DNA of 64,000 nucleotides, taken from the NCBI GenBank assembly GCA_030390025.1, contig CM059431.1, forward strand, positions 116,810,001 through 116,874,000, given 5' to 3'. The DNA is from Squalus acanthias. Lineage: Eukaryota. A model generated the notes under the pieces. It did no database searches and was not told the DNA's origin. It saw only the letters and a program-made list of their open reading frames with translations. Of this stretch, positions 5,217-64,000 are shown in pieces. The first letter of the stretch is position 1, and every line of letters starts with the position of its first letter. The position numbers and the translations under genes were made by a program.

Positions 5217-5628
5217 ACATAGAGTCATAACAGAGTCATGGGGGAAAAATTCAGTATCGCCCCGTTTAGGGCGCGATTATCAACCGGGCGCAAAGTTTAG
5301 CGCCTGCCGCTAATTATCGCCTCCAACTGCAAACTTGACTTTTATCGCCCCTGGAGGTGATTGGAGCGCTAAATCAGGCGCTACACACCTCTCTTAAGGC
5401 GCAAAGGCCGAGGAGCGAGGCGCTACCTCAGAGCGCTGGCGAATCTCGGCCTGGAGAGACCTGTACATCAAATCTGCTGGAAAGAACAATGGAGAGACCC
5501 AGGGAAAGAGCTCAGAGTGCAGCCCCACAGTCTCTTCTAAATCGATACAAGGAAGGGCAAATCAAAATTAACCTGCAAAGTGCTGCTCAGTACCCAAAAC
5601 TCCTTCACGCAGCATTGAATCTCTCCAG

Positions 5629-5663
<35 letters not shown>

Positions 5664-6545
5664 AATGCGTGGTGTAAAAATGTCACCAACAAAAAAAGGC
5701 AGGAAGCGGTCGCCTTTAAATAGCGCTCCCCCAGTCCCTTCCTGACTGCAAAACACTCCCCTCAACCTGTCGTTGCTAGCGTCAGGCGGTAAGGCAGGGG
5801 GCGTTACTCAATATCCGGTCTGGGGCGCTACTGGGGTGTTGCACACTCAACTGACGTCACGATCTGCCGGCGCAGGAGATCGTGGCGGCACTGTTTAGCG
5901 CCGCCGCAAAATGTCTAGTAAATTTTGTGAGCAGCGCAAACATCGCCGCGCACAGGAGCTAGTTGCTTTGCGCCCCATTAGCGCCCTCTTAAGGCGCTAA
6001 CGGGAGGCGCAAACCAACTGAAATTTTCCCCCATAGAGTCATAACGGCACAGAAGGAGGCCATTCGGCCCATCAAGTCCGTACCAGCTCTCTGTAGAGCA
6101 ATCCAGTCAGTCCCAGTCCCCCGCTCTATCCCCGTAGCCCTGCAAGTTTATTTCCCTCAAGTGCCTATGCAGGCTCCCTTGAAATCATTGAGTGTCTCCA
6201 CTTCCACCACTTCCGTCGGCAGTGAGTTCCTTCCTGACCCACTCTGCTTATTTTTACCTAAAACTCTACTCTGCTCTAGAGCCTTGACATGTCTCTTGCT
6301 GCTTTTAAATTTACTCTTTCCTGAATCCTCCCAACCCCCCTCTCTACTGCCCTAGTTATTCGATTCGCCAGGACACTGGACCCAGCCCGGATTTAAGTGG
6401 AGCCAGTCCCATCGGGACAGCTCCCTCTTTCCCCAGTACTGGTGCCTGTGCCCCATGAACTGAAACCCCTTCCTCCCACCCCACTCTTTGAGCCATGCAT
6501 TTAAAGCTCTAATCTGTTTGTCCGTATGCCAAAACACTCTAATTC
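5217..6545 (-). mobile_element. CR1 fragments (3' tail plus ORF1 C-terminal piece), interrupted by a MITE
   Basis: (ATAGAGTC)n tail and ggccattcggccc 3'UTR; ORF 6352-6549 (LNAWLKEW..GFQF..DWLHLN) resembles the CR1 ORF1 esterase. Confidence 0.75.
5240..6032. mobile_element. Harbinger-type MITE, copy A
   Basis: TIR GGGGGAAAAATTCAG / CTGAAATTTTCCCCC; inserted in a CR1 tail repeat; reverse-complement homologue at 7433-8318; internal (CT)n. Confidence 0.9.
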
Positions 6546-7432: not shown

Positions 7433-8318
7433 GGGGGAAAAATTCAGTTGGTTTGCGACTCCCGTTAGTGCCTTAAGAGGGCGCTAATGGGGCGCAAAGC
7501 AACTAGCGCCCGGGCGCGGCGATATCTGCGCCTCTCGCGAAATTGACCAGACATTTTGCGGCGGCGCTAAACACTACCGCCACGATCTCCTGCGCCGGCA
7601 AATCGTGACGTCAGTCGAGTGCGCAACGCCCCAGTTGCACCCCAGAGCAGATATTGAGTGGCGCCCCCTGCCTTACTGCCTGCCGCTAGCAGCGACAGGT
7701 TGAGGGGAGCGTTTTGCAGTGAGAAAGGGACTGGGGGAGCGCTATTTAAAGGCGAACGCTTCCTGCCTTTTTTTGTTGGTGACATTTTTGCACCACGCAT
7801 TCTGAGAGAGAGAGAGACTTCTGGAGAGATTCAATGCTGCGTGAAGGAGTTTTGGGTACTGAGCAGCACTTTGCAGGTTCATTTTGATTTGCCCTTCCTT
7901 GTATCGATTTGGAAGAGGGGGGGCTGCACTCTGAGCTCCTTCCCTGGTTCTCTCCATTGTTCTTTCCAGCAGATTTGATGTACAGGTCTCTCCAGGCCGA
8001 GATTCAAGGCTGCAATGAGCAGGATGTGGATGGAGAGCAAGATCAACCCTCCCATTTAAGAACTGGCCGGCACCATTGTGTCTGTGTTCCATTGCTGACT
8101 GACATCACATGAGCTTCGCCAGCGCTCTGAGGTAGCGCCTCGCTCCTTGGCCTTTGCGCCTTAAGACAGGTGTGAAGCGCCTGATTTAGTGCTCCAATCA
8201 CCTCCAGGGGCGATAAAAGCCAAGTTTGCAGTTGGAGGCGATAATTAGCGGCAGGCGCTAAACTTTGCGCTCAGCCGATAATTGCGCCCCAAACGGGATG
8301 AAACTTAATTTTTCCCCC
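7433..8318. mobile_element. Harbinger-type MITE, copy B (inverted relative to copy A)
   Basis: TIR GGGGGAAAAATT / AATTTTTCCCCC; perfect ATA 3-bp TSD. Confidence 0.92.
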
Positions 8319-10279
8319 ATAGAATTTCACACCAAAGCTGCAGCTGGCATGTACCATCCTGCTTCCCCATATCTGACACCATACTTGATTCCCCACCCCA
8401 CCCCCTCACACCCACCCAAAGGATTTGAAGAGTTTACTCATAGGGAAAGAAAGCAGAAGTTTGTGAGACTGTCACCTGTCGCAGAACTTGCGCTAGGGTT
8501 AATGTCTTTCTTCCCCTTCTAAATGACTGCAAGAAGTGAGAATTGCCTTCGGTTATCATAAGATGCAGTAAACCTAGGTGTCAGCATGCAGCCAACTGGG
8601 TGTGATGGCAGGTATATGCATCATCAAATCCAAGTGGGGTCTTTAGTATGGTGATTGCATGTAAGACTGTGAATGGATGGACAATTCCAGGTGAAGGCTA
8701 GGATGTGGAGGGCCTCCTGGGCATTGATGGTAAGCAGTTCAAACACTTTGCTACAGTGTAAGGAGAGATCGCTGTAACTGACTGACATGCTTAGGGCAGT
8801 GTGGGGTAAAAATTGGGCTTCCTCATTCCTGGTGAAAGATGGAATTGCATACTGAGAAATTACGCATCGAGAGTCCCTGATTTCTGTCTATTAATTTTAA
8901 TGGATGAAAATTCATGATCTGGTTTCACACAGTTGTGTCCTACATGTGTTGAGGGAGGAGAAGTGAAACTTCTATCTCTGTATTTTTGGAAGGTGTGGCT
9001 GTTACCTCTTACCTTGCCTGGCCTGTTAAGGTCAGTCAACTTTTCTGGCACTGAGTTGAAGTTTGTGCTGCAGTGGGGTGGGGGATGTGGTAAATCACAT
9101 TGGCACTGACCGACCTGTCCATCTCCTTCCTTTGCTCCTGTCTCTTCTTGGGGCTCTATGTTGTTCTGGAGCAGACCTTGCATCCCTCCTCTGTCCAACT
9201 TACTTCAGGTGGCAGCTGTATCAGTGTATATTTGGGCTTTCTGCTCTCCTGCAGACCTCACTGACATGCTTTGACAGGAAACCAAAACATTAGTTTTTTT
9301 TCCCTCCGAGTCAGACAATCTCTGAAATCATTATTCATATTATAATTTTGCTGCCAAGCAATCTTTATTTAAAAGAATAACCTTTTGACCCCTAGTCTAG
9401 CTCAGGAACGATTGGTTTCTATTTCAGAAAATGATTTCTGCCTTATCGCATCACAGCAATAATGTGTCTTTGTATGATCTCACAGGTCTAGACAAAAAAC
9501 ATTGTTTTATATGCCTGACAAGTTCTTTGCTGGCACATCTTTGTCGTCATTATGACTTCCAAATTATTGGGGTCTGATGTGTGGGCCATCGAATGTTATG
9601 GCAATCATCTACAAATTGTTTCTCAATAAACATGCTAATGACATCAGAATTATTATGAGTAAAATCATTATTAAGCATCAACATCATGACGAACAGCTAA
9701 AATACATAAAGACAGCTATACAGCGTGGGGAATCAGCTGCCAATTATTTGTTTACATGGCTTAAGACAATCTCTCAATGTGCTACTACCTTGTTGCAAGC
9801 TCCTTAATGCATATTATTCTATGTCAACATTTTAACATGTTTGCTGCTTTTGGCATTAGAAATGCTAAATGTAACAGGAGTTTCAGGATAAATTGCAAAT
9901 ATTCCCATTCTAGGAGTCAGTGGTCCACAGACAGCCTTCTTTATCCTCGCGGAACAACCAACAAGAGCTGTGATTTCTGCAGGGAGGGTTGGTTATGCTA
10001 GTTGTTGCTTTTACCCGAAATGAAGCAATCAACATGAAGGCAGGTGGTGTATGCAGCTGAGCAGTTTAGAAACAGTGAGACTCACTGCTTAGCAATGGCA
10101 GATGAGATTGGCTTACAAGCATGTGGGCCATCTGGTCATTGGTTATTTTAATCTCTGAGGTGCATCGATATTTTTGTTGAAGTACTGTTCTGTGAACAAG
10201 ATTAAAGTCGAAACACACTGCAACTAATATCATCAGAACATTAAAAAAAATCTGGAAATCACAAAACATTACTAATGAA

Positions 10280-27844: not shown

Positions 27845-30800
27845 TAGTGGGTTTACATTTGCTATCCTCCAATCTGCAGGAACCGTTCCAGAATCTATAG
27901 AATTTTGGAAGATGACAACCAATGCGTCCGCTATCCCAATGGCCACCTCTTTCAAAACCTGAGGATGTAGTTCATCCGGTCCTTGGGATTTATCGACTTT
28001 TAGTCCCATTAATTTTGCTAGTACTGTTTTTTTGCTAATAATAATTTCTTTAAGTTCCTCATTCTCGCCACACCTTTGGTTTTCTCGTATTTCGGGGAGG
28101 TTTTTTGTGTCTTCCTCCGTGAACACAGAAACAAAGTATTTCTTTAATTTCTCAGCCATTTCCTCATTCCCCATTATAAATTCTCCCGTCTCTGACTGTA
28201 AAGGACCTACATTTACCTTCGCCAGTCTTTTCCTTTTCACATACCTATAGAAGCTTTTACAATCCGTTTTTATATTTTTCGCTAGTTTGTGCTCATATTC
28301 CATTTTCCTTTTCTTTATCAATTTCTTGGTCCCCCTTTGCCGATTTCTAAAAAGATCCCAATCCTCAGGCTGACCGCTTTTTCTGGCAACTTTATAAGCT
28401 TCCTCCTTTGAATTAATACTAGCTTTAATTTCTTTTGTTAGCCATGGTTGGATCACTTTTCCTTTTGGGTTTTTATGCCCTAGAGGAATATATGTTTGTT
28501 GCAAATTATGCATTATTTCCTTGAATGTTAGCCATTGTATGTCCACCTTCATACCTTCTAGTGTAGTCTCCCAATCTACCATGGCCAACTTGTCCCTCAT
28601 ACCCTTGTAGTTTCCTCTGTTTAGATTGAAGACCTTAGTTTCAGATTGGACTACATCACTCTCAAACTTAATGTAAAATTCAATCATATTATGGTCACTT
28701 GTCCCTAAAGGCCCCTTTACCACAAGATTATTGATTAGCCCTTTCTCATTACATGGTCCCAGATCCAGAATAGCCTGTTCCCTGGTTGGTTCCTCCACAT
28801 TCTGATCCAGGAAACCATTCCAAGAATTCATCCTCCACACCATTAGTGGTAATTTGATTTGCCCAGTCAATATGTAGATTAAAGACCCCCATGATTACCG
28901 TATTGCCCTTGTTACATGCACTTCTAATTTCTTGATTGATACTGTGCCCTACATTACCACTACTGTTTGGTGGCCTATACACAATTCCCACCAATGTTTT
29001 CCGCCCTTTGCTGTTTCTTAGCTCCACCCAAACTGATTCCAGTTCTACATCACGATCTGCCGAGCCAAGATCTTTTATCTGTACCGTACCGATCTCATCC
29101 CTTATTAACAGCGCTACGCCACCTCTTTTTCCTTTTTTCTGTCCTTCCTAAATGTTCAGTACCCTGGAACATTCAGTTCCCAGCTTTGGTTACCCTGCAA
29201 CCATGTCTCTGTAATGGCAATTACATCATACCCATTTACTTCTATTTGTGCCATTACTTCATCTACCTTGTTGCGAATGCTACATGCATTTAGATAAAGT
29301 GCCTTCAACTTTGCCTGTTTAATATTTTTCTGCACTTTGACCCACTTTACTGTTGGCCTTTGTTTCTGCTCCCTACTAGTTTTGCTGACTACTTTTCTAA
29401 CTTGCACTTCCAGCTTTGTTTCTCTCCATTCTGGGCCCACACTTAGGTTCCCAGCCCCCTGACAAACTAGTTTAAATCCTTCTCAATAGCAATAGCAAAC
29501 CCCCCTGTGAGGATATTGGTCCCGGTTCTGCCGAGGTGTAATCCGTCCAGCTTGTACAGGTCCCACCTTCCCCAGAATCAGTCCCAATGCCTCAGGAATT
29601 TAAATCCCTCCCTCCTACACCATCTCTCCAGCCACGCATTCATCTGGTCTAGTCTCCTATTTCTGCTCTCGCTAGCACGTGGCACTGGGAGTAATCCTGA
29701 GATTACTACCTTTGAGGTCCTGCTTTTTAATTTATTTCCTAGCTCCCTATATTCTGCTTGCAGGACCTTGTCCCACTTTCTACCTATGTCGTTGGTACCA
29801 ATATGGACCACGACCTCTGGCTGTTCACCCTCCCCCTTCAGAATGTCCTGCAGCCGCTCAGTGACATCCTTGACCCTGGCACCAGGGAGGCAACATACCA
29901 TCCTGGAGTCACGTCTGCAGCCACAGAAATGTCTATCTGTTCCCCTTACAATAGAATCCCCTATCACTATTGCTCTCTCACTCTTTTTCCTCCCCTCCTG
30001 TGCAACTGAGCCACTCGTAGTGCCACGGACTTGGCTCTTGCTGCATTCCCCTGAGAAACCATCTCCCCCAGCAGTATCCAAAACGTATTGACTTCTCTCA
30101 TCTTGAAGAACACAAATATTTAGCAAAAAATTCTTAAGAAAGTAAATTCCATGGAGGTTTTTAATGGTCTTTCACCTTAACTTCAGCAGGATACTGGCAT
30201 TTCCCCTAAAAAAACAGTGTAAACAACTGAAAATAGTCCTTTATGCTGTTTCTCTGAGCTCCGCCAGTCTTCTGCTGAAGTTACAGCAGGAGACCAGATG
30301 AACCCCCGCGTAATTTCAAGGTCACCACGTCTTAGCAAGTGTTTCATCGTCATACCTTGATCGCTCATAGAACATGAAGCTCTCACCCACGATGACATTC
30401 TGATCACCCTTTGTCACGCCTACCTTGCCCAAGACAGCTAAGAACTACCCACTTTACAAAGACTAAACTGGCCAGTGGACAATGCAATTGGCAAGCAAAG
30501 GACATGCCAGGGCTTTCACAATTGGTGAATCTTGGAAAGGAAGCAGAGCATACCACAGCTGGAGGGAGGAATTATATTAGCATGCAAGGCTTCATAATGC
30601 CAGACTTATCACAAACCCCAAACAGTTCGACTGGGGCTCAAAAATACTTCATGAAATTTTATTTAACATAGCTATAATCTTTAATGGTGTGCTCTGATGA
30701 CTGACAAAGCATATTTTAAAACTTTAGAGAACAATGAGGGAGCAAAGCATTAGATCCTAACGTTCAATGTCAGATATGTTTTGAAATAGCTATATTTCAT

Positions 30801-32792
30801 ACATATGGACAGAAAATAAAAGCATGAATTTTACTTGTAACCTCCTATAGGGCTTATAGCACTGAAGGAATCTAATAAAACGTGGATTGAAGATAAATGT
30901 AAACCAAGTTGGATATTTCATCTGGTTTGGTCCTGGGGGGAATGAAGAGAAATCCAGCATAAAAGCTGTAAAGTAGTAAATTATAATCAAATGCAATTTT
31001 GATAAATTGGCAGCTACTGGACTGTACAGATACGCAGTAATGCTGCACTAAAAGGAGATACAATAACTTTGTTGGCTGCAAACAATCAGTTCAACAATAG
31101 CTTTGCAATTTATTTTTAATGAAGTTATTTGTTTGCTCTAAAGGCCATTAATAAGGCATCTGTGAGCTGTCATCTACATTAGCTGTTATGGATGCTGCAC
31201 ATCTGCCTCCACAGATGCAGAGTCAATCAGCGGTGTAGCTGGGCACTGCTATTTGTAATATTTAGGAACTTCCTTTATTTTTGAAACAAATGTGCGGCAA
31301 AAAAAAAATTGGGTTTACTTTTTTTTAATTAAACATTTTTTTTTCAATTAGCAAGTGACAAATTGCAAAATAAATCGGTCCTTAATTTGCCCATTTGTTT
31401 TTATTCTTATTTATTAGTAATAATCTTCATAGTCAGCTTCCCTGGGAGTTTTTTCTATTCACAATCATTCATTAACAATTTGAAGATGAAAGCAGCAATT
31501 TTAGACCAAAATCAACGTTATGATTTTTAGTTAACTAAGGATAATTCTAATGAAGAAATAGAGTGTGTGTCTCTCTCAATGCTCTTGTTCTACCCAGTCA
31601 GCAGTAGTAATTACAGCATTTAGCTTGGTGTAGGGGCGGAGTGGCACACAATACCCTTTTACATCTATGACTTTTGGTTCCATAGCTAGATGAGATGACA
31701 TGAAAATTGGCTTGATCTGTCAGCTATTAATGGTCATAAGTTTAATGATTTTGAATTGTTCTAATTCAGTTCCCATTGGACACAAGTCCACATACAAAAA
31801 CGCCTTGAATCTGGCACTAATTAGTACTAATTCAGCAATCTTGATATATGAAGTCAAAAGGATGCAACATGCAGGGAACTGAAAAGTCACATTGGAGCAT
31901 TGCAGATACTTGTTCAAAGCTGGACTGAAGCACATTATTTGGAACTATTTAAGGCGCTGTGCATTGCATCTGACATGCCATTATTCCCTGTGCGTGCCTG
32001 GTACAGCTCGGAGCTAAACACAGTGTTCTTCAGCCATTCCATTGCACGCCCTCACCTCTAATGAACACTTGAACACGAACACGAGTTTGCAGATGTTATA
32101 CCACAGGACACTTTTTAAAAACTGTTTTTCATTTTTTTCTTTCTCTTTTTTTCTTCTGCAGTCTCTCTGAAGCACACGTTGCCTATCCCCAAGAGAGCAG
32201 ATGGACAGCCGTCCCCTGGGCATTGTCAACACGGTTCTATTAATGACTCTTGGGAGGGACACAAGAACGGTCCAAAAGATTCTCTTATGATTTTGCGTCC
32301 TTGTGTGGAAATGCCTAGTCCCACTCATGACTGCCTTTCCATGACTAATGGGCATATGTCTTTTAAAAAGAAATTCACTTAGTCCTAGCATGATTAATCA
32401 TCATTTTATTTTTCAAAAGACAATGTATTTTCAGTCATTCATTTCCAGAACATTTCCATGACATAAGAGAGAAAGAACATGCAATTGTTCCCATCTTAAC
32501 TGTCTGTAGATATTCTGCTGCAATTCATTCTCACCTCCACTTCTACGTGTCAGTTTCAAACCAATTTGTCTTCACAAATCAATCTGCTGGAACAAATGCT
32601 TCCGTCTGCGCTATTGGCTTTCAAAATGATCCACAAGTGGTATTTACAAGGAGCCCACAGAGAACAGCTTCCTTACACAGCTATGTCTGCCTTTGCGATG
32701 CAGCTGGGAATCTGGCAAGAAGGAAAACCTACCTCAGAAAAATGTAAGAAGTCGCACAACACCAGGTTATAGTCCAACAGTTTTATTTGAAA

Positions 32793-32829
32793 TCACAAGC
32801 TTTCGGAGCGCTGCTCCTTCGTCAGGTGA
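32793..32829 (-). ncRNA. Minimal type I hammerhead ribozyme motif
   Basis: UCAC-CUGACGA-A-GGAGC-AGC-GCUCC-GAAA-GCUU-GUGA. Confidence 0.7.
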
Positions 32830-32841
32830 CGTCTGACCACT

Positions 32842-32879
32842 TCACCTGACGAAGGAGCAGCAGCTCCGAAAGCTTGTGA
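32842..32879 (+). ncRNA. Minimal type I hammerhead ribozyme motif
   Basis: UCAC-CUGACGA-A-GGAGC-AGCA-GCUCC-GAAA-GCUU-GUGA: helix I UCAC/GUGA, helix II GGAGC/GCUCC, palindromic AGCU in place of helix III. Confidence 0.7.
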
Positions 32880-33326
32880 TTTCAAATAAAACTGTTGGAC
32901 TATAACCTGGTGTTGTGCGACTTCTCACATTTGTCCACCCCAGTCCAACACCGGCATCTCCACATCATGGCACCTCAGAAAAGACTACGCGGTCCCTAGT
33001 GTGTTATTCCTGGAAGTAGCTGAAACACAGGTCCAGTGACGCGACCATTTAAACAAATGTTTAATAGCCGATCTGTGTGCAGTGTTCCTGGAGGAGTGTT
33101 GCGGAATCCAACTGGAAAAAGTTGTGTGCTGCAAATAGTTGTCAAGACAACTGCTGACTTACCTTTCACGCATCAGCACCTGCTGGATTTTCACCATTGA
33201 TGTGATGGGAATAAAATAGTCAGCTATATCAAAATGTATCAACTGAATATCTGCTGCTCAGTACAAGAGGGCAGCATAATTCATGAACTTTCCTCTGTAC
33301 TTAGTTACGACAACAACAAACACGGT

Positions 33327-34103
33327 AGGCCAGATTATGCTGGGGCGTGCCCCATTAGTTAGACTGGTTCATACACGTTTAGCTTTTAACAATTTTTTTC
33401 TCCACAAATTTGCTGGAAGTGCGAGCTGATAACAGTGTGGCGAGGGCAACAGGGCTTCTGGGACCTTGGTGAGCAATGGGACAAACAGTGTATCTCCTTA
33501 ACCAATGAGATTAAAGGATTGAGAAATAAACAGAGGAAGGACTGAGAAGAAGGACTGTAGAATTAGAGTGGGTGAATACAATGTCAAATCAGGTATGGAA
33601 AGAGGAATAAAGAGAGGGAAAGAAAGATTGGACTAAGAGAGAGAGAAAAAAAAGATAGAAAGGTAAAGTAAATTTTTTTTTAAAAATTGACATTTTTTAA
33701 ATCTAAAACAATTTACAACCTGAAGGAATGAAACCCTACACTTATAATTTTCTGGGTAAGACAGGTTGATTGGCAGTCATTAACAGTTATCACATCACTA
33801 AAAGGGTACTTCCGCTAATAATTACTAGATTTAACTTTCAGTGGCCAGTTTAATGGGCAATTAATGTGCAAATGCAGTAACTTCATGAAAATCATGGGGA
33901 GGTTAAGCTTGGGTTGCCGTTCTCACAAAGCTAACGGTGGAGTGACGCAAATCACCCAGCAGCTTGTGATGATTCGCAATTCATGTGGTATCTCTTCCTC
34001 ACCACAAATTCCTGCTGATTTGAACATTAGTACCGGTGTACATTGTTCATACACCGTTATCTATGCAGCAGTTTTGCAGCAGTTTTGCAGCAGAATCCGG
34101 CCC
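33327..34103. mobile_element. Old Harbinger-type MITE
   Basis: Imperfect 16-bp TIR AGGCCAGATTATGCTG / CAGCAGAATCCGGCCC. Confidence 0.65.
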
Positions 34104-34292
34104 AATAAGAACAGTAGTTCTGGGCCTTGTCTGAATTTCCAATAATATCGGAAGCTAATGACTATGCACATGCAACGATGCAGGCACCTTCTGAAACGAA
34201 GATAGAAACATAGAAAATAGGTACAGGAGTAGACCATTCGGTCTTTCGAGCCTGCACTGCCATTCAATGCGTTCATGGCTGAACATGCTACC

Positions 34293-37229
34293 TCAGTACC
34301 CCATTCCTGCTTTCTCACCATACCCCTTGATCCCCTTAGTTGTGAGTGTTATATCTAACTCCCTTTTGAATATATTTAGCGAACTGGCCTCAACAACCTT
34401 CTGTGGAAGAGAATTCCATAGATTCACCACTCTCTGGGTGAAGAAGTTCCTCCTCAGCTCAGTCCTAAATGGCTTCCCCTTAATCCTTAGACTGTGACCC
34501 CTGGTTCTAGTTTTCCCTACCATTGGGAACATTCTTCCCGCATCTAATTTGTCTAAACCAGTCAGGATTTTAAATGTCTCTATAAGATCCCCCCTCATTC
34601 TTCTGAACTCCAGAGGATACAAGTTCAGTTGACCCAATCTTTCTTGATATGTCAGTCCGGCCATCCCAGGAATCAATCTAGTGAACCTTCGCTGCACTCC
34701 CTCAATAGCAAGAATGTCCTTCCTTAAGTTAGGAGACCAAAACTGCGCACAATACTCCAGGTGTGGCCTCACCAAGGCCCTGTACAACTGTAGCATCACC
34801 TCCCTACTCCTGTACTCAAATCCCCTTGCTATGAAGGCCATCATTCCGTTTGCTTTCTTGACTGCCTGCTGCACTTGCATTCCCACCTTCAGTGACTGAT
34901 GTACCATGACGCCCAGGTCTCGTTGCACCTCCCCTTTCCCTAATCTGCCACCATTCAGGTAATAGTCCGCCTCTCTATTTTTACCACCAAAGTGGATAAC
35001 CTCACATTTATCCACATTGTACTTCATCTGCCATACATTTGCCCATTCACCCAACCTGTCCAAGTCACTCTGTAGCCTCCTAGCATCCTCCTCATTGTTC
35101 ACACTGCCTCCCAATTTAGTGTCATCCGCAAATTTGGAGATATTACATTTAATCCCTTCGTCCAAATCATTAATATATAATGTAAACAGCTGGGGTCCCA
35201 GCACCGAACCCTGCGGTACCCCGCTGGTCACTGCCTGCCATTCTGAAAAGTACCCATTTACTCCTACTCTTTGTTTCCTGTGTGCCAACCAGTTCTCAAT
35301 CCACGTCAACACATTACCCCCAATCCCATGTGTTTTAACTTTGCTCACCAATCTCTTGTGTGGGACCTTGTCGAAGGCCTTCTGAAAGTCCAAATACACC
35401 ACATCTACTGGTTCCCCCCTGTCCACCCTATTGGAAACATCCTCAAAAAATTCCAGAAGATTTGTCAAGCATGATTTCCCTTTCACAAATCCATGCTGAC
35501 TTGGACCTATCATGTCGCCACTTTCCAAATGGTCTGTTATGACATCTTTAATAATTGCTTCCATCATTTTACCCACGACCGATGTCAGGCTGACCGGTCT
35601 ATAATTCCCTGCTTTCTCCCTCCCTCCTTTTTTAAAAAGAGGGGTTACATTGGCCACCCTCCACTCCATCGGAACTGATCCAGAGTCTAAGGAATGTTGG
35701 AAAATGATCGTCAATGCATCCACTATTTCCAAGGCCACCTCCTTAAGTACTCTGGGATGCAGACCATCAGGCCCCGGGGATTTTTCAGCCTTCAGTCCCA
35801 TCAATTTCCCCAATACCTTTTCCCGACTAATAAGGATTTCCCTCAGCTCCTCCCTCTTACCAGATCCTCTGACCCCTTTTATTTCCGGCAGGTTGTGTGT
35901 GTCCTCCACAGTAAACACCGAACCAAAGTACTTGTTCAATTGATCAGCCATTTCCTTGTTCCCCATTACGACTTCCCCTGTTTCCGACTGCAGGGGACCT
36001 ACGTTTGTTTTTACTAACCTCTTTCTTTTTACATATTTATAGAAGCTTTTGCAGTCCATTTTAATGTTCTCTGCAAGCTTCCTTTCATATTTTATTTTCC
36101 CTGCCCTAATCAAACCCTTCGTCCTCCTCTGCTGAGTTTTGAAGTTCTCCCAGTCCCCGGGTTTGCTGCTACTTCTGGCCAATTTGTATGCAACTTCCTT
36201 GGTTTTAATACTATCCCTGATTTCCCTTGTTAGCCATGGTTGAGCCACCTTCCCTTTTTTATTTTTACGCCAGACCGGGATGTACAATTGTTGTAGTTCA
36301 TCCATGCGATCTCTAAATGTCTGCCATTGCCCTTCCACTGATAGCCCCTTAAATATCGCTTGCCAATTTAACCTCGCCAATTCACGCCTCATACCCTCAA
36401 AGTTGCCCTTATTTAAGTTCTGGACCATGGTCTCTGAATTAACTGTTTCCTTCTCCATCCTAATGTAGAACTCCACCATACTATGGTCACTCTTCCCCAG
36501 GGGGCCTCGTACCACAAGATTGCTGATTAGTCCCTCCTCATTACACAACACCCAGTCCAGGATGGCCTCCCCTCGAGTTGGTTCCTCAACATATTGGTTT
36601 AGGAAACCATCCCTTAAACACTCCAGGAAATCCTCCTCCACCGTATTGCTTCCAGTTTGAGTAGCCCAATCTATATGCATATTAAAGTCACCCATGATAA
36701 CTGCCGTGCCTTTTTTGCACGCACCTCTGATTTCCTGTTTCATACCCTCCCCCACCTCACTACTGCTGTTTGGAGGTCTGTACACAACTCCCACTAACGT
36801 TTTCTGCCCTTTGGTGTTCTGCAGCTCAACCCATATTGATTCCACATCCTCCAAGCTGATGTCCTTCCTAGCTATTGCATTAATCTCCTCTTTAACCAGC
36901 AATGCTACCCCACCCCCTTTTCCTTTTATTCTATCCTTTCTGAATGTTGAATACCCCTGGATGTTCAGTTCCCAGCCTTGATTGTTCTGGAGCCACGTCT
37001 CTGTAATCCCAATCACATCGTATCCGTTAACATCTATTTGCACAGTCAATTCATCCACCTTATTACGGATACTCCTTGCATTAAGACACAGAGCCTTTAG
37101 GCTTGTTTTATTAACATCCTTTGTCCTTTTAGACTTATGATTTAGTATGGCCCTTTGTGTTTCTTGCCTTTGTTTACTCGGCCTTCCCCTATTGTTTCTC
37201 ACCCTTCTAACATTTGTTTCTGACTGCAT
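34293..37229 (-). CDS. CR1 ORF2: APE endonuclease plus reverse transcriptase, 978 aa, intact
   Basis: EN motifs LNARS, ITETWL, GDFN, ILD, SDH; RT motifs [33 protein letters not shown]. Confidence 0.97.
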   Translation of the reverse strand: MQSETNVRRVRNNRGRPSKQRQETQRAILNHKSKRTKDVNKTSLKALCLNARSIRNKVDELTVQIDVNGYDVIGITETWLQNNQGWELNIQGYSTFRKDRIKGKGGGVALLVKEEINAIARKDISLEDVESIWVELQNTKGQKTLVGVVYRPPNSSSEVGEGMKQEIRGACKKGTAVIMGDFNMHIDWATQTGSNTVEEDFLECLRDGFLNQYVEEPTRGEAILDWVLCNEEGLISNLVVRGPLGKSDHSMVEFYIRMEKETVNSETMVQNLNKGNFEGMRRELARLNWQAIFKGLSVEGQWQTFRDRMDELQQLYIPVWRKNKKGKVAQPWLTREIRDSIKTKEVAYKLARSSSKPGDWENFKTQQRRTKGLIRAGKIKYERKLAENIKMDCKSFYKYVKRKRLVKTNVGPLQSETGEVVMGNKEMADQLNKYFGSVFTVEDTHNLPEIKGVRGSGKREELREILISREKVLGKLMGLKAEKSPGPDGLHPRVLKEVALEIVDALTIIFQHSLDSGSVPMEWRVANVTPLFKKGGREKAGNYRPVSLTSVVGKMMEAIIKDVITDHLESGDMIGPSQHGFVKGKSCLTNLLEFFEDVSNRVDRGEPVDVVYLDFQKAFDKVPHKRLVSKVKTHGIGGNVLTWIENWLAHRKQRVGVNGYFSEWQAVTSGVPQGSVLGPQLFTLYINDLDEGIKCNISKFADDTKLGGSVNNEEDARRLQSDLDRLGEWANVWQMKYNVDKCEVIHFGGKNREADYYLNGGRLGKGEVQRDLGVMVHQSLKVGMQVQQAVKKANGMMAFIARGFEYRSREVMLQLYRALVRPHLEYCAQFWSPNLRKDILAIEGVQRRFTRLIPGMAGLTYQERLGQLNLYPLEFRRMRGDLIETFKILTGLDKLDAGRMFPMVGKTRTRGHSLRIKGKPFRTELRRNFFTQRVVNLWNSLPQKVVEASSLNIFKRELDITLTTKGIKGYGEKAGMGY

Positions 37230-37276
37230 ATTACTTCCCCCTGTTTCGCTACATAGGTTCCCATTCCCCTGCCATA

Positions 37277-38220
37277 TTAGTTTAAATCCTCCCGAACTGC
37301 TTTAGCAAATATTACCCCGAGGACATCGGTTCCAGTCCTGCCCAAGTGCAGACCGTCCCTTTTGTACAGGTCCCACTTCCCCCAGAACTGGTTCCAATGC
37401 CTCAGGAATTTGAATCCCTCCCTCCTGCACCACTGCTCAAGCCACATATTCAATCTCACTATCCTGTTCTCTCTATTCTGATTGCACGTGGCCCTGGTAG
37501 CAATCCAGAGATTACTACCTTAGAGGTCCTACTTTTTAATTTAGCTCCTAGCTCCCTAAATTCTGCTTGTAGGACCTCTTCCCGCTTTTTACCTATATCG
37601 TTGGTACCTACATGCACCACGACAGCTGGCTGTTCACCCTCCCTCTTCAGAATGTTCTGCAGCCGCTCCGAGACATCCTTGACCCTTGCACCAGGGAGGC
37701 AACATACCATCCTGGAATCTCGGTTGCGGCCACAGAAACTCCTGTCTATTCCCCTTACAATTGAGTCCCCTATCACTATAGCCCTACCACTCTTTTTCCC
37801 ACCCTGCTGTGCAGCAGAGCCAGCCATGGTGCCATGAACCTGGCTGCTAGTGCCTTCCCCTGGTAGGCCATCTCCCCCAACAGTATCCAAAGCGGCATAC
37901 CTGTTTTGGAGGCAGATGACCACAGGGGACTCCTGCACTACCTTCCTGATATTGCCCTGCTTCTTGGTCACCCATTCACTGTCTGTCCTAGCCTTTACCT
38001 GCGGTGTGGACAACTCACTAAATGAGCGATTCACCGAGTTCTCGGCATCGTGCATGCTCCAGAGTGAGTCCACCCGCAGCTCCAGCACCGCCATGTGGGC
38101 TGTCAGGAGCTGCAGCTGGACACACTTCCCGCACACGTAGTTGTCAGGGACACTGGAAGTGTCCCTGGTTTCCCACATGGCACAGGAGGAGCATGAAACG
38201 GGTCCGAGACTTCCTGTCAT
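37277..38220 (-). CDS. CR1 ORF1 (zinc finger, leucine zipper, SGNH esterase) with one frameshift near 37482
   Basis: CSSC..CGKC, IVIGDS, HVGTND, DGLH; the two ORF pieces join if 1 nt is restored. Confidence 0.9.
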
Positions 38221-38508
38221 GACTTAACCCTTATGTTACTTTATTACTAAAATTTAAACTTATTTAACTTAGGTCCAGGAGTTAAGTCCCTGAAAACAAA
38301 ATATAAAATCGAACCTACCTTTTAAATTCCCTCTACCCCTAAAGGTTAGAGGAGGTGGGAGGGTGGGAGTCACTACTAGTGTAGTGTCTCGGGTTTAGCA
38401 ACCGCTCCACCTATATACGGGTACCAATGAATTGGCCCCGCCCCCTGCCTTTGAAAAAGCCCGCAAAGCTCTTTCCCCGCTGGGGAAAAAGGCCACGTAG
38501 GTGAGTTT

Positions 38509-38940
38509 AATGACTCACCTCAGGCCTCTGCCGCTCCAACCAGGTCCGCCCCTCCTTCCCCGCTGCTGACCGCTCTGTGGGAGAGAGAAAGAAAGAAAGG
38601 CTCCTCTTCCCCCACTGTCGACGCTGGTCTGAGGCCTACCTGAGCCTTGGGCCTCCCTTTAATGACTCACCTCAGGCCTCTGCCGCTCCAACCAGGTCCG
38701 CCCCTCCTTCCCCGCTGCCGACCGCTCTGTGGGAGAGAGAAAGAAAGAAAGGCTCCTCTTCCCCCGCTGTCGACGCTGGTCTGAGGCCTACCTGAGCCTC
38801 GGGCCTCCCTTTAATGACTCACCTCAGGCCTCTGCCGCTCCAACCAGGTCCGCCCCTCCTTCCCCGCTGCCGACCGCTCTGTGGGAGAGAGAAAGAAAGA
38901 AAGGCTCCTCCTCCCCCGCTGTCGACGCTGGTCTGAGGCC
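38509..38940 (-). repeat. 152-bp tandem monomers (~2.8 copies) in the CR1 5'UTR
   Basis: aatgactcacctcagg recurs at 38509, 38661 and 38813. Confidence 0.95.
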
Positions 38941-43622: not shown

Positions 43623-44857
43623 CTAAGCAAATCTGGCCAAGATGAGTGCATCCCTTGCATCCCGGGCAGCAATGTGCTCGCGTGCTGCTGCCGCTGGTTG
43701 ATGCGCCTCCGCAAGCTGTTCATTCTCGCTCTCCTCCTCCTCCTCCTCCTCATCCTCATCTGAGGAGGCTATGTGATCAGCCACTTGTACCTCAGGCAGC
43801 TGCAAGCCACAATGCTGTGCGATGTTGTGCAGTGCACAGCAGACCACGACGATTCTGGAGACCCTGGCTGCTGAGTACTGCAGGGCTCCACCTGATCTAT
43901 CAAGGCATCTGAATCGCATCTTCAGCAAGCCGATGGTTTGCTCGATTATGGATCTGGTGGAAATGTGGCTGGAGTTGTAGCGCTCCTCAGCGTCGTTGGA
44001 AGGCCTCCTCAACGCCATCATTAGCCACGTCTTCAGGGGATAGCCCTTGTCTCCAAGTAGCCATCCGCAAAGTTGGTCTGGCGGACCGAAGAGCGGAGGA
44101 ACACTAGACTGCCGCAGGATGAAGGAATCATGGCAACTGCCAGGGTACTTGGCACAAACATGCAACATTTCCTTATTGTGGTCACACACCAGCTGCACGT
44201 TGAATGAGTGGAAGCCCTTGCGGTTGACAAAAATACCTGGATTGTGATGGGGTGCCTTAAGGGCCACATGTGTGCAGTCAACAATGCCCTGCACCCTTGG
44301 AAAGCCTGCCAGATTAGCAAAGCCAACCGAACGTGCGGTTACACTTGCTTGATCCTTGGAGAAGTTGATGTAATTGTGCGCGATGGCAAAGAGGGCATCG
44401 GTTACCTGCGTGATGCAAGTGTGTGCGGCCACCTGGGAGATGCCGCTGATATCTGCTATTTATCCCTGGAATGAGCCTGAAGCAAATAATTTGAGTGAGG
44501 TGGTGACTTTGACGGCCACTGGTAAGGGGTGTCCACCCACTCCTCTGGGCTCCCGGTCTTGCTGCAGCATTGCGCAGATGTGACCCACTACCTCTCGCGA
44601 AAGTCTGAGCCTCCTTTGGCACTGCTGCTCAGTCACGTTGAGGTAGCTCATCCTCTGTCTGTAAACCCTGTTTTGGGGGTATCTCCTGCGGCGACGTCAT
44701 TCCCTGCGCTGGCGGCTTCAGGTGGGTGAGCAGCAGGTTGGCGCTCCTGTTGTTGCTCCTGCTGTTGGTGCTGCTGTTGTTCCAGGTGCTGCTGCTGCCG
44801 CGACTGGTCTTCATCTGAATCTGAGGTCCAGGAGGAAAGGAAATAAATGGTTCCCAT
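43623..44857 (-). pseudogene. Harbinger DDE transposase, nearly intact
   Basis: [27 protein letters not shown] motifs in a 269-aa ORF; in-frame TAA at 44460-44462; stop and frameshift in the N-terminal region. Confidence 0.95.
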
Positions 44858-60596: not shown

Positions 60597-62804
60597 GGGC
60601 CGGAATTTTGTTTACCTGGGTGCGGGAGGTCACCGTGGCCAGTCGGGAACTCGTTCCCCATTTCATCCCGCTCCTCAGTGACTTTCCCTTAATGGCGCCT
60701 ATTAAGCCCGCCCTGCATGTTTCCCGGCCCTATTAAATGGTGCAGGTCTGATGACGTCATCGATGACTCATTTTCAGCTGGGATATTAAAAGGAGCTATG
60801 GCCACTTTGCATTTGAAGGTTCATCTAGGATTGTGCAGGCACTGTATTGGAGCATTTGAGTGTTGCTAAGCCTTGGAAACATGGCTACACAGAGACAGAG
60901 GGCTGCACCCAGGTTCTCAGATGACTCCGTCCCTATGCTTGTGGAGGGAGTGAGAGCAAGCAGGGAGGTCCTCTTCCCTTCTGATGGGCGGAAGAGACCT
61001 CCCCAGGAGACAAAACGAGCCTGGCTAGAGATAGCAGAGGAGGTCAACAGCAGGGATGTTGTCAGGAGGACCTGGGTGCAGTGCCAGAAACACTTCAATG
61101 ATCTCATTAGATCAGGAAAGGTGAGTGCAAAGCCACACTCAACTTCATCCTGCTGTACCTCTCATCACATCCCCATCACACTACCTTCCCAACCCTACTC
61201 CTGCACATCCTTACTCACACCAACATACCTTGCATGTCCACCGATCCCTCTCTCTCTAAGTACATACTCACATCCCCATCTTACTAACCATCCCTCACAC
61301 TCACCCTCATCCTAATACAATCATACCAACTAACAACACACAAGGAGGCCCTTTGTCATTGGCACCACTCTCCATCATAGTCACCCTCTACAGATGGAAC
61401 CCATCCATTCCTTGCATTCATTGCATCACTCTCACTCAGACTTCTCCTCTTTCCCTCCTTGCAGGAGAAGAGAGCCCACAATAAGAGGGAGAGGGAGAGA
61501 ATCAGAGGTGGCCCTCCATCATTGGTGACGTTAACTGCAGCAGAGGAGGCTGCCCTGAAAGTATCAGGAGTCGCAGAGCAGCTGGCAGTGGGAGACTGAG
61601 AGAGGGGAACATCTCAGCAACCTGGTGACAGAATTACATCTCATACAGTCAAATGGCATACAGCAGTCACTCATAAGGGGACTGATGTCAGCAGCCAGTG
61701 AATGTTCATCATGTGCATAATGGTATTGTTACCCATTCTTGATATGACATTTCTAAATCATCTCTTTACAGGTCCATCAAGAGCCCCCAAACTGTCCAGG
61801 AGGAAGAGGAAGACGACTCTTCAGAGGAGCCTTCTGTTTCTGACGGCGCACCATCAGCAGACATAAGTGCACCCAGCACCAATGCAGAGACACATACCTC
61901 GGTGGGTCCCATGCGAGATAGAGTAGTGTTGTCACCTGGTGTGTCACAAGTCACAAGTGAGCAAGAGGAGATGGTGGAGACAAGGACAGCAGTGGAGACT
62001 CCTGGCTGGAGGGTGCAGGACTCTCCCAGCTCTGCTCAGCTGCATGCAGACGCTGAGCCTCGGGGCCCATCCAGAAAGATGGTGATCCTGGAGGTGCAGC
62101 AAAAAGTGCAGGAGGGTTTGACAGGTTTTGCGACCACGATGTCAGCAAATGTTCAGAGAATGGAGGAGTCCATCTCCAACATGAGCACCACTGTGTCGCA
62201 GGCGATAGCAACTGTAGGCTCTTCCATGGAAAGGATGGCCACCTGCTTGGAGCAGCTAATGCACCACTCCCCTGTTGCATTCCCCTCAGTCAGAGCCCCA
62301 CATGCTTCCTGGGATCACGATGGCTGTGTCTGCTCCTGCACAGTCACAGGAGGAACAGACTTTGGCAGGTCCATCACAGGCTCCAAGACCCAGAGGATAT
62401 CCACCAAAAGGGTCTGTGCAGTTGCAGCAGGGACGTGAGCAGGCTGCCTCTACCTCTGCTAAAGCCACAGGGTTGCACCTCGTAGAAGGGTAAGCACTTG
62501 GGTGTTTAATTGCTGTTTGTGTTACGCTTCCGTTACTCTGATGTCATATATTAAACTATTGTTTTCACCACTTTCCAGTCATGGCCAATTTAGTCTGCAA
62601 CTTTGGAAGTGGCTTAGTGAGTTGGAGTGAATGGTGAGACATACATTACCTCCATAATGGTGGTCAGTGTGAAAGGAATGGCTTGGTCATTGTAGGGATG
62701 CTTTATGATGATGCTGTGGGGTAGTGCCAACCTGGCTTAGCATATGGCAGTCATATGGGTGTACTGCCTGAAATTAAGTAAATCTGGCAATGATGAGCCC
62801 ATCC
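60597..62804. mobile_element. Harbinger element (left part), interrupted by a young CR1
   Basis: TIR GGGCCGGAATTTTG; Myb gene; last transposase codons DGLIIARFT* on - strand at 62774-62803. Confidence 0.9.
60881..62493 (+). pseudogene. Three-exon Myb/SANT-like accessory gene
   Basis: Exons 60881-61120, 61465-61624, 61772-~62490; the first two exon sizes match the 41356 copy; stop in exon 2, frameshift in exon 3. Confidence 0.88.
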
Positions 62805-64000
62805 AGCGTCGACAGTGGGGGAGGAGGAGCCTTTCTTTCTTTCTCTCTCCCACAGAGCGGTCGGCAGCGGGGAAGGAGGGGCGGACCTGGTTGGAGCGGC
62901 AGAGGCCTGAGGTGAGTCATTAAAGGGAGGCCCGAGGCTCAGGTAGGCCTCAGACCAGCGTCGACAGCGGGGGAGGAGGAGCCTTTCTTTCTTTCTCTCT
63001 TCCACAGAGCGGTCGGCAGCGGGGAAGGAGGGGCGGACCTGGTTCGAGCGGCAGAGGCCTGAGGTGAGTCATTAAACTCACCTACGTGGCCTTTTTCCCC
63101 AGCGGGGAAAGAGCTTCGCGGGCTTTTTCAAAGGCAGGGGGCGGGGCCAATTCATTGGTACCCGTATATAGGTGGAGCGGTTGCTAAACCCGAGACACTA
63201 CACTAGTAGTGACTCCCACCCTCCCACCTCCTCTAACCTTTAGGGGTAGAGGGAATTTAAAAGGTATGTTCGATTTTATATTTTGTTTTCAGGGACTTAA
63301 CTCCTGGACCTAAGATAAATAAGTTTAAATTTTAGTAATAAAGTAACATAAGGGTTAAGTCATGACAGGAAGCCTCGGACCCGTTTCATGCTCCTCCTGT
63401 GCCATGTGGGAAACCAGGGACACTTCCAGTGTCCCTGACAACTACGTGTGCGGGAAGTGTGTCCAGCTGCAGCTCCTGACAGCCCGCATGGTGGTGCTGG
63501 AGCTGCGGGTGGACTCACTCTGGAGCATGCACGATGCCGAGAACTCGGTGAATCGCTCATTTAGTGAGTTGTCCACACCGCAGGTAAAGGCTAGGACAGA
63601 CAGTGAATGGGTGACCAAGAAGCAGGGCAATATCAGGAAGGTAGTGCAGGAGTCCCCTGTGGTCATCTCCCTCCAAAACAGGTATGCCGCTTTGGATACT
63701 GTTGGGGGAGATGGCCTACCAGGGGAAGGCACTAGCAGCCAGGTTCATGGCACCATGGCTGGCTCTGCTGCACAGCAGGGCGGGAAAAAGAGTGGCAGGG
63801 CTATAGTGATAGGGGACTCAATTGTAAGGGGAATAGACAGGAGTTTCTGTGGCCGCAACCGAGATTCCAGGATGGTATGTTGCCTCCCTGGTGCAAGGGT
63901 CAAGGATGTCTCGGAGCGGCTGCAGAACATTCTGAAGAGGGAGGGTGAACAGCCAGCTGTCGTGGTGCATGTAGGTACCAACGATATAGGTAAAAAGCGG
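62803..64000 (+). mobile_element. Young CR1 5' part (monomers, 5'UTR, ORF1), runs off the window
   Basis: Nearly identical to the reverse complement of ~37582-38780. Confidence 0.96.
63362..64000 (+). CDS. CR1 ORF1 (partial, open to the window end)
   Basis: MTGSLGPVSCSSCAMW...IVIGDS...HVGTND, as in the ORF starting at 38220. Confidence 0.9.
   Translation, partial: MTGSLGPVSCSSCAMWETRDTSSVPDNYVCGKCVQLQLLTARMVVLELRVDSLWSMHDAENSVNRSFSELSTPQVKARTDSEWVTKKQGNIRKVVQESPVVISLQNRYAALDTVGGDGLPGEGTSSQVHGTMAGSAAQQGGKKSGRAIVIGDSIVRGIDRSFCGRNRDSRMVCCLPGARVKDVSERLQNILKREGEQPAVVVHVGTNDIGKKR

What the first reader, a model, noticed from the sequence alone, without database searches (positions are those of the whole stretch)
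32731..32982. Palindromic Penelope mini-element with a hammerhead ribozyme on each strand
Seen: a ~230-bp insertion with an 11-bp direct repeat, ~90-bp near-perfect inverted arms, and in each arm CUGACGA / helix II / GAAA with helix I UCAC:GUGA. Helix III is reduced to the palindrome AGCU, there is an extra A after A9, and the predicted cleavage is after CUU. Known: Penelope pseudo-LTRs carry minimal hammerheads thought to cleave as dimers. Inference: transcription in either direction yields one ribozyme plus its antisense arm, so the long hairpin would compete with ribozyme folding. This could be a non-autonomous ribozyme retroelement or RNA switch.
Basis: partly seen in the sequence, partly recalled or inferred. 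Interest (0 to 1): 0.7.

Follow-up and report, generated by a model that had tools for sequence, protein, structure and literature searches.

The report
Two-template Penelope leader palindrome
This 230-base mirror-image insert is a single, lineage-specific landing of two back-to-back front ends of a very abundant Penelope-type jumping gene, a known layout; its self-cutting RNA motifs are predicted to be locked shut, and a one-letter difference between the halves suggests they were likely copied from two separate RNA molecules.

Summary
There is an 11-bp target-site duplication, two head-to-head arms of 88 and 93 nt around an 8-nt filler, a one-sided 41-nt tail, and a minimal hammerhead motif in each arm. 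Two related species have the empty site, 241 nt shorter. The arms belong to an extremely abundant family. Head-to-head joins recur elsewhere, but with different centres, so this is a one-off insertion product and not a palindromic family. It is not a switch: in either direction the antisense arm is transcribed first, and helix II is predicted at p≤1e-11. Inverted ends, a tail, a short TSD and opposite-strand hammerheads are all published Penelope-like element (PLE) features. The likely mechanism is that both 3'-OH ends of a staggered cut prime cDNA on the uncleaved RNA leader, running to near its 5' end. The arms carry different loop-II alleles, both present in the family, which favours two templates over fold-back; this rests on one site. 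The scan has reported this layout and twin priming many times on other DNA (158 notes).

The parts
32731..32741 (.). Left copy of the 11-bp target-site duplication
   Evidence: single copy at the empty site in organisms B and C
32742..32829 (-). Short arm: PLE leader without tail, ending at the first base of hammerhead helix I; 3-nt loop II
   Evidence: outer end matches the family's short terminus (loose ends with mixed flanks at 32740, 32925, 32927)
32793..32829 (-). Minimal type I hammerhead motif, predicted cut 32797|32796 after CUU
   Evidence: activity untested
32830..32837 (.). 8-nt filler at the head-to-head join; not the family's natural upstream sequence
   Evidence: in X1, 101,283 of 103,244 depth at 32830 reads another letter; depth about 1e-4 of the arm. 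Its 4-5-nt matches to the ribozyme core are too short to interpret
32838..32930 (+). Long arm: PLE leader starting at a predicted initiator (A at 32839); 4-nt loop II
   Evidence: initiator and start site inferred
32842..32879 (+). Minimal type I hammerhead motif, predicted cut 32875|32876 after CUU
   Evidence: single arm: helix I p 0.71, helix II p 0.97; activity untested
32893..32950 (+). Predicted 9-bp helix (32893-32901 with 32942-32950) that encloses the short terminus
   Evidence: p 0.55-0.71; counterpart in L002 p 0.93-0.98 with three two-sided changes (two sequences only, alignment-dependent; not formed in the MFE of a shorter L002 piece)
32931..32971 (+). One-sided 41-nt tail ending in ATG GC (ATG 32967-32969, likely the ORF start)
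   Evidence: family ends with mixed flanks behind 32968, 32969 and 32971 (74, 73 and 53 contigs in X1); L002 also ends in ATG
32972..32982 (.). Right copy of the target-site duplication

Best explanation
This is one insertion of two head-to-head copies of the hammerhead-bearing leader of an abundant Penelope-like element, likely made when both 3'-OH ends of an 11-nt staggered cut each primed reverse transcription on a separate, uncleaved element RNA and ran off near its 5' end, with the ribozymes predicted to be inert in any read-through transcript. SHOWN: a single insertion with a TSD and an empty site in two species; outer ends at the family's two termini; a centre not shared as a family trait; both arms extending 33 and 38 nt 5' of the cleavage site, so the templates were uncut; arms that carry different loop-II alleles, both found in the family. 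INFERRED: (1) Transcription starts at an initiator just before helix I. (2) The RT starts internally at two sites near the ATG, one inside and one beyond the tail helix, as shown in vitro for the anole element PAc. (3) The top strand of the left flank primes the short cDNA and the bottom strand of the right flank primes the long one. (4) Repair joins the two cDNA ends with 8 filler bases. The PLE-by-product reading is about 0.9 likely; priming from both ends on two templates is about 0.6.
For: Empty site and TSD. Arm/flank depth ratio of 0.85-4.3e5 in four runs of three organisms (order of magnitude only, the tool warns that depth is not copy number). Centre/arm depth 1.9e-4 (X1), 1e-4 (X5), 6e-6 (X9). 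The gapped rows shown for X1 sum to a depth of 1,306 against 1,300-1,707 total there (about 19 contig entries, some possibly double; 12 rows not shown). One search lists 168 joints, and 7 of the 15 shown have one side within about 5 nt of the ribozyme front. 17 X1 contigs have mixed sequence directly before 32839 (agreement 0.4). The natural upstream letters complete TCACTTC, an initiator consensus (recalled), and a TATATAAG appears about 30 nt upstream in X7 (9 contigs). The 3-nt loop is in 56 X1 contigs (5.5% of depth; 12.7% in X5), while the 4-nt loop dominates organism A and is rare in B and C. A fold-back copy would have identical arms. The same ribozyme with the same AATAAA-GGAC-GTCC-ATG layout lies on two metagenome contigs with an RT frame (L001, RVT_1 E 1.5e-5, below the curated cut-off) and a GIY-YIG-like frame with a CxxxCxxC linker (L002). 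PAc cuts and extends both strands, has two internal RT starts that bound the tail, is predicted to be a dimer and uses uncleaved RNA (PMC11167929).
Against: The two-template inference rests on one base at one locus; a later deletion, gene conversion or assembly error could mimic it. The window differs from all four runs at 3 flank positions, though X1 and X5 show no flank indel. The second arm difference (32746) is rare in organism A (0.3%) and looks like a later mutation. The clustering of joins at the ribozyme front is biased, because the reference arms end there. The left arm stops 3 nt short of the predicted start. The TATA motif rests on few long loose ends of another upstream variant. 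No autonomous parent was linked to this family in the host: L001 and L002 are distant relatives, picked by a pattern that fixes helix II. In PAc the RT starts lie 111-118 nt inside the ORF, whereas here the termini lie at the presumed ATG.
Confidence: 0.6

Rival explanations
1. Fold-back self-priming: one cDNA folds on itself and is copied, so the short arm is a copy of the long arm, and the loop difference arose later.
For: Proposed for PLE inverted junctions in PMC3846280 (Discussion). The arms are otherwise nearly identical.
Against: The arms differ exactly at a site that is dimorphic in the family. The centre is an 8-nt filler foreign to the natural upstream sequence. Both outer ends match family termini, which fits two RT starts.
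Confidence: 0.27
2. A non-autonomous palindromic mini-element that is transcribed and mobilised as a unit.
For: Head-to-head joins at the ribozyme front recur. Some gapped variants have depth of 100-375 against 13 for single-copy DNA and could be small multi-copy sets.
Against: Centres differ among the contigs that cross the join, and depth there is about 1e-4 of the arm. A unit transcript would be a -164 kcal/mol hairpin without the upstream promoter.
Confidence: 0.06
3. A regulatory RNA switch or a co-opted hairpin (siRNA or editing substrate) at this locus.
For: Read-through would give about 90 bp of dsRNA.
Against: No alternative state is reachable. The insert is absent from two species whose flanks differ by only about 4%, so there is no sign of conservation.
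Confidence: 0.03
4. Two separate neighbouring insertions brought together by a later deletion.
For: Would explain two alleles in an abundant family.
Against: One TSD brackets the whole insert, and the empty site lacks exactly 230 + 11 nt with no host sequence lost.
Confidence: 0.04

Closest known systems
EN+ PLE insertions with inverted pLTR, one-sided tail and TSD (Pen2a_Av and Pen2_Av, PMC3846280; general scheme in PMC8557442 Fig. 2 legend)
   Same: Head-to-head inverted end, 30-40-nt tail on one side only, 9-10-bp TSD (11 here), initiator-like TCACT in the pLTR
   Different: No ORF and no direct pLTR here; only the two leaders remain; centre is a filler rather than an overlap or palindrome
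Minimal hammerheads of metazoan PLEs (PMC4209133)
   Same: Short helix I, extra base between positions 9 and 10.1, G10.1-C11.1 pair, palindromic 15.2-16.2, no helix III; pairs on opposite strands about 100-700 bp apart are already reported
   Different: The two motifs are only 12 nt apart; no shark named in the parts read or in 2 searched supplementary files (file 1 not searchable)
Poseidon element PAc of Anolis (PMC11167929)
   Same: Two termini bounding a tail; uncleaved RNA as template; protein extends both strands
   Different: PAc starts lie inside the ORF; the paper does not discuss inverted ends or TSDs; the relative found here has a Neptune/Nematis-type linker
Non-LTR retrozymes (bioRxiv 10.64898/2026.07.22.740005)
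   Same: ORF-less, hammerhead-bearing, PLE-derived
   Different: Retrozymes are direct tandem repeats able to release monomers; this is inverted, so no transcript holds two sense ribozymes

Membership tests
EN+ Penelope-like element insertion | Short TSD from one integration event | tested here: met
   11 bp; empty site in two species
EN+ Penelope-like element insertion | Inverted terminal copy plus 30-40-nt tail on one side | tested here: met
   tail 41 nt (39 if T/A microhomology with the TSD is discounted)
EN+ Penelope-like element insertion | Minimal hammerhead in the pLTR | tested here: met
   against the features in PMC4209133
EN+ Penelope-like element insertion | Parent with RT and GIY-YIG ORF sharing this pLTR in the host genome | tested here: inconclusive
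   No host genome held; only distant relatives L001 and L002 link the motif to RT and GIY-YIG-like frames
Active hammerhead ribozyme | Conserved core and cleavable NUH triplet | tested here: met
   CUGACGA/GAAA/CUU; position 17 is U or C in the family (21% C in X1) and A in L001 and L002
Active hammerhead ribozyme | Covariation in helices I and II | tested here: inconclusive
   No compensatory pair among the variants listed at 1% or more; contigs are unphased; L001 and L002 were selected on helix II
Active hammerhead ribozyme | Self-cleavage | not testable with these tools
   Needs an assay; folding predicts none in the palindrome
Non-LTR retrozyme | Direct tandem units, each with a type I hammerhead | tested here: not met
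   Arms are inverted
Non-autonomous palindromic family (MITE- or SINE-like) | Many copies sharing the same centre and ends | tested here: not met
   Centre depth about 1e-4 of the arm, with differing gaps; from contig depth, not a genome count

The most novel reading that the evidence does not exclude
PLE inverted ends are made by a dimeric enzyme that copies two different RNA molecules from the two ends of one staggered cut. Mini-palindromes like this one are complete run-off copies of the capped leader whose first bases are the hammerhead. Allele mismatches between arms, across a family of order 1e5 copies, would give a direct genomic test against the published fold-back model.
Probability: 0.5. 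Interest if true: 0.55.

Novelty: new member of a known kind. Interest (0 to 1): 0.27.

Why it matters
As an object it is ordinary PLE debris. Its value is as a clean footprint. How PLEs make their inverted ends and one-sided tail is still open (PMC8557442 ascribes them to untested endonuclease properties; PMC3846280 proposes self-priming). This copy has a proven empty site and two arms with different family alleles, which is the kind of observation that separates two-template priming from fold-back, and the family is large enough to count it genome-wide. It also shows that ribozyme cleavage was not needed for insertion, in line with the PAc in vitro result.

Tried and rejected
No host genome was held, so copies could not be counted or aligned; contig depth was used instead. 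Rfam has no matching hammerhead model; the miRNA matches are far below threshold and reflect the hairpin only. The window holds no second copy. Pattern scans found 0 loci in viral contigs, 0 in prokaryote genomes, and 0 then 2 in metagenomes. No RNA holder was listed on record. A run guessed to be RNA (X12) holds family sequence and has no cover over the centre; neither is evidence on expression. I looked for a depth step at the cleavage site 32876 and saw none, but contigs cannot show RNA ends. Pfam gave no family for the L002 endonuclease frame; the GIY-YIG label rests on the Atlas (score 0.97, family on 23-34% of members of three clusters) and motifs read by eye. The unconstrained fold of two single arms gives sense-sense pairing through helix II, not an AGCU helix III, so dimer activity is not supported by folding. 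The helix coordinates were off by one and were redone. I saw no evident host exon among the frames in 30100-34250 (by eye only). A cap-derived G at the centre and templated filler were considered and left as too short to interpret. Literature searches for a two-strand-priming model of PLE inversion and for shark palindromic PLE elements found none; Arkhipova 2006 and Evgen'ev and Arkhipova 2005 were not read and may hold such a model. 'Shark' is from recall and from earlier notes, not tested here.

Full report
Observation. The window shows an 11-bp direct repeat at 32731-32741 and 32972-32982 around a 230-nt insert: a minus-strand arm (32742-32829), 8 filler bases, a plus-strand arm (32838-32930) and a 41-nt tail. 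Over 88-89 nt the arms differ by one indel in loop II and one substitution. The insert folds at -168 kcal/mol, z -25.5. Each arm has a minimal type I hammerhead motif. A descriptor finds only these two in the window, against one hit in 300 shuffles. Rfam has no model that matches. The surroundings are CR1-type LINEs and a Harbinger-type transposase frame. The host looks shark-like by recall and by earlier notes; I did not test this, and no genome was held.

A real, single insertion. In organisms B and C one contig each runs from 32729 directly to 32971, lacking exactly 241 nt = insert + one TSD copy. Their flanks differ from the window by about 4%. Organism A has the insertion junctions (both in X1, the right one in X5). 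The insertion is therefore younger than the split between A and B/C. I saw no listed contig bridging this locus's own centre.

Family and uniqueness. Depth on the arms is 0.85-4.3e5 times the flank depth in the four runs (order of magnitude only). Contigs end with mixed flanks behind 32968, 32969 and 32971 and near 32925-32927, so the insert's two outer ends are the family's long and short termini. Over the centre, depth falls to 1.9e-4, 1e-4 and 6e-6 of the arm in X1, X5 and X9. In X1 the gapped rows shown account for about 1,306 of 1,300-1,707 depth, with differing 1-4-nt gaps (12 rows not shown). One search lists 168 joints with many break points. Head-to-head joins are thus a recurrent product, while this centre is not a family trait. 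Some gapped variants have depth well above single copy, so small multi-copy sets are not excluded.

Link to Penelope-like elements. A ribozyme pattern found two marine-metagenome contigs with the same core, helices I and II and a similar downstream layout ending in ATG. L001 has an RT frame (RVT_1, E 1.5e-5, under the cut-off). L002 has a GIY-YIG-like frame with a CxxxCxxC linker, the Neptune/Nematis mark named in PMC8557442. A predicted helix pairing the leader with the tail (p 0.55-0.71) has a counterpart in L002 (p 0.93-0.98) with three two-sided changes (two sequences only). This is an indirect link: no autonomous parent was found in the host.

Not a switch. In a head-to-head layout the antisense arm precedes the ribozyme in both directions. 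The central stem is predicted at 0.97 (plus) and 0.89 (minus) before the core is complete. Helix II stays at or below 1e-11 at all prefixes tested, and forcing the ribozyme costs 56 kcal/mol. A single arm alone forms helix I (0.71) and helix II (0.97). Both arms extend 33 and 38 nt 5' of the cut site, so the copied RNAs were uncleaved, as for PAc in vitro. Position 17 is U or C in the family (21% C in X1), both cleavable by established hammerhead rules. Covariation in helices I and II could not be shown.

Mechanism. The top strand of the left arm and the bottom strand of the right arm are both antisense to the element RNA and both start at a TSD end. This is the geometry of two cDNAs primed from an 11-nt 3'-overhang cut (inference). 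PAc cuts and extends both strands, is predicted to be a dimer and starts at two internal sites that bound the tail; that paper does not discuss inverted ends. The published explanation for inverted joins is self-priming, which predicts identical arms. Here the left arm has the 3-nt loop and the right arm the 4-nt loop. In organism A the 4-nt form dominates and the 3-nt form is in 56 X1 contigs (5.5%; 12.7% in X5; likely underestimated by clipping); in B and C the 4-nt form is rare. This favours two templates but rests on one base. Both arms stop at the ribozyme front. Natural upstream letters complete an initiator-like TCACTTC with A at 32839, 17 X1 contigs have mixed sequence directly before 32839, and 7 of the 15 joints shown have one side within about 5 nt of the front (biased by the reference). 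I took the run-off reading from earlier notes and found it partly borne out in these rows.

Known or new. Inverted pLTR, one-sided tail and a 9-10-bp TSD are described as the typical PLE structure (PMC3846280: passages and Discussion; PMC8557442: passages; PMC8969392: passages). Minimal hammerheads with these features, and pairs on opposite strands, are in PMC4209133 (parts 1-2 of 4; 2 supplementary files searched, file 1 not searchable). PMC11167929 was read in parts 1-2 of 4 plus passages, without supplements. The retrozyme preprint was read in part 1 of 5 plus passages; its supplements, which list the one chondrichthyan sampled, were not seen. PMC12910113 passages added nothing. Searches found no two-template model in the library, but two key reviews were not read. 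Within this scan, 158 notes in at least 16 genomes hold the same words and several propose twin priming; these are unchecked and are not support.

Verdict. The feature is real. It is a new member of a known kind: not a switch and not a palindromic family. Interest 0.27. The two-template reading has probability about 0.5 in its full form and would merit 0.55 if confirmed genome-wide.

Noticed in passing
window 34293-37301 (-): Open 1002-aa CR1-type ORF2 frame with endonuclease and RT domains, likely a young LINE copy
   Followed up: partly
window 37582-38779 and 62803-64000: 1.2-kb inverted pair, 98.6% identical, with internal ~152-nt tandem units; likely the 5' part of the same young LINE family
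   Followed up: no
window 43623-44459 (-): DDE_Tnp_4 (Harbinger-type) transposase frame, 278 aa
   Followed up: partly
window 5238-6032 and 7433-8320: Long inverted pair at 90-92% identity around about 1.4 kb; possibly a DNA transposon or another inverted insertion
   Followed up: no
window 33322-33400: Mid-abundance repeat next to the element (depth 300-1,100 against 12-36 in the flanks)
   Followed up: no
L001:374-1050 and L002:738-1414: Two marine-metagenome contigs 99.6% alike over 677 nt, holding a Neptune-like PLE end with an internal 109-nt inversion; likely animal DNA in the samples
   Followed up: partly
window 32875: The cleavage-site base is dimorphic in organism A (about 20% C in X1 and X5) but nearly fixed U in organism D
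   Followed up: no
window 32839 / 32969 (run X5): A contig joins the tail end back to 32839 through 22 other letters, a mini-tandem that restarts at the predicted initiator (table 5c)
   Followed up: no
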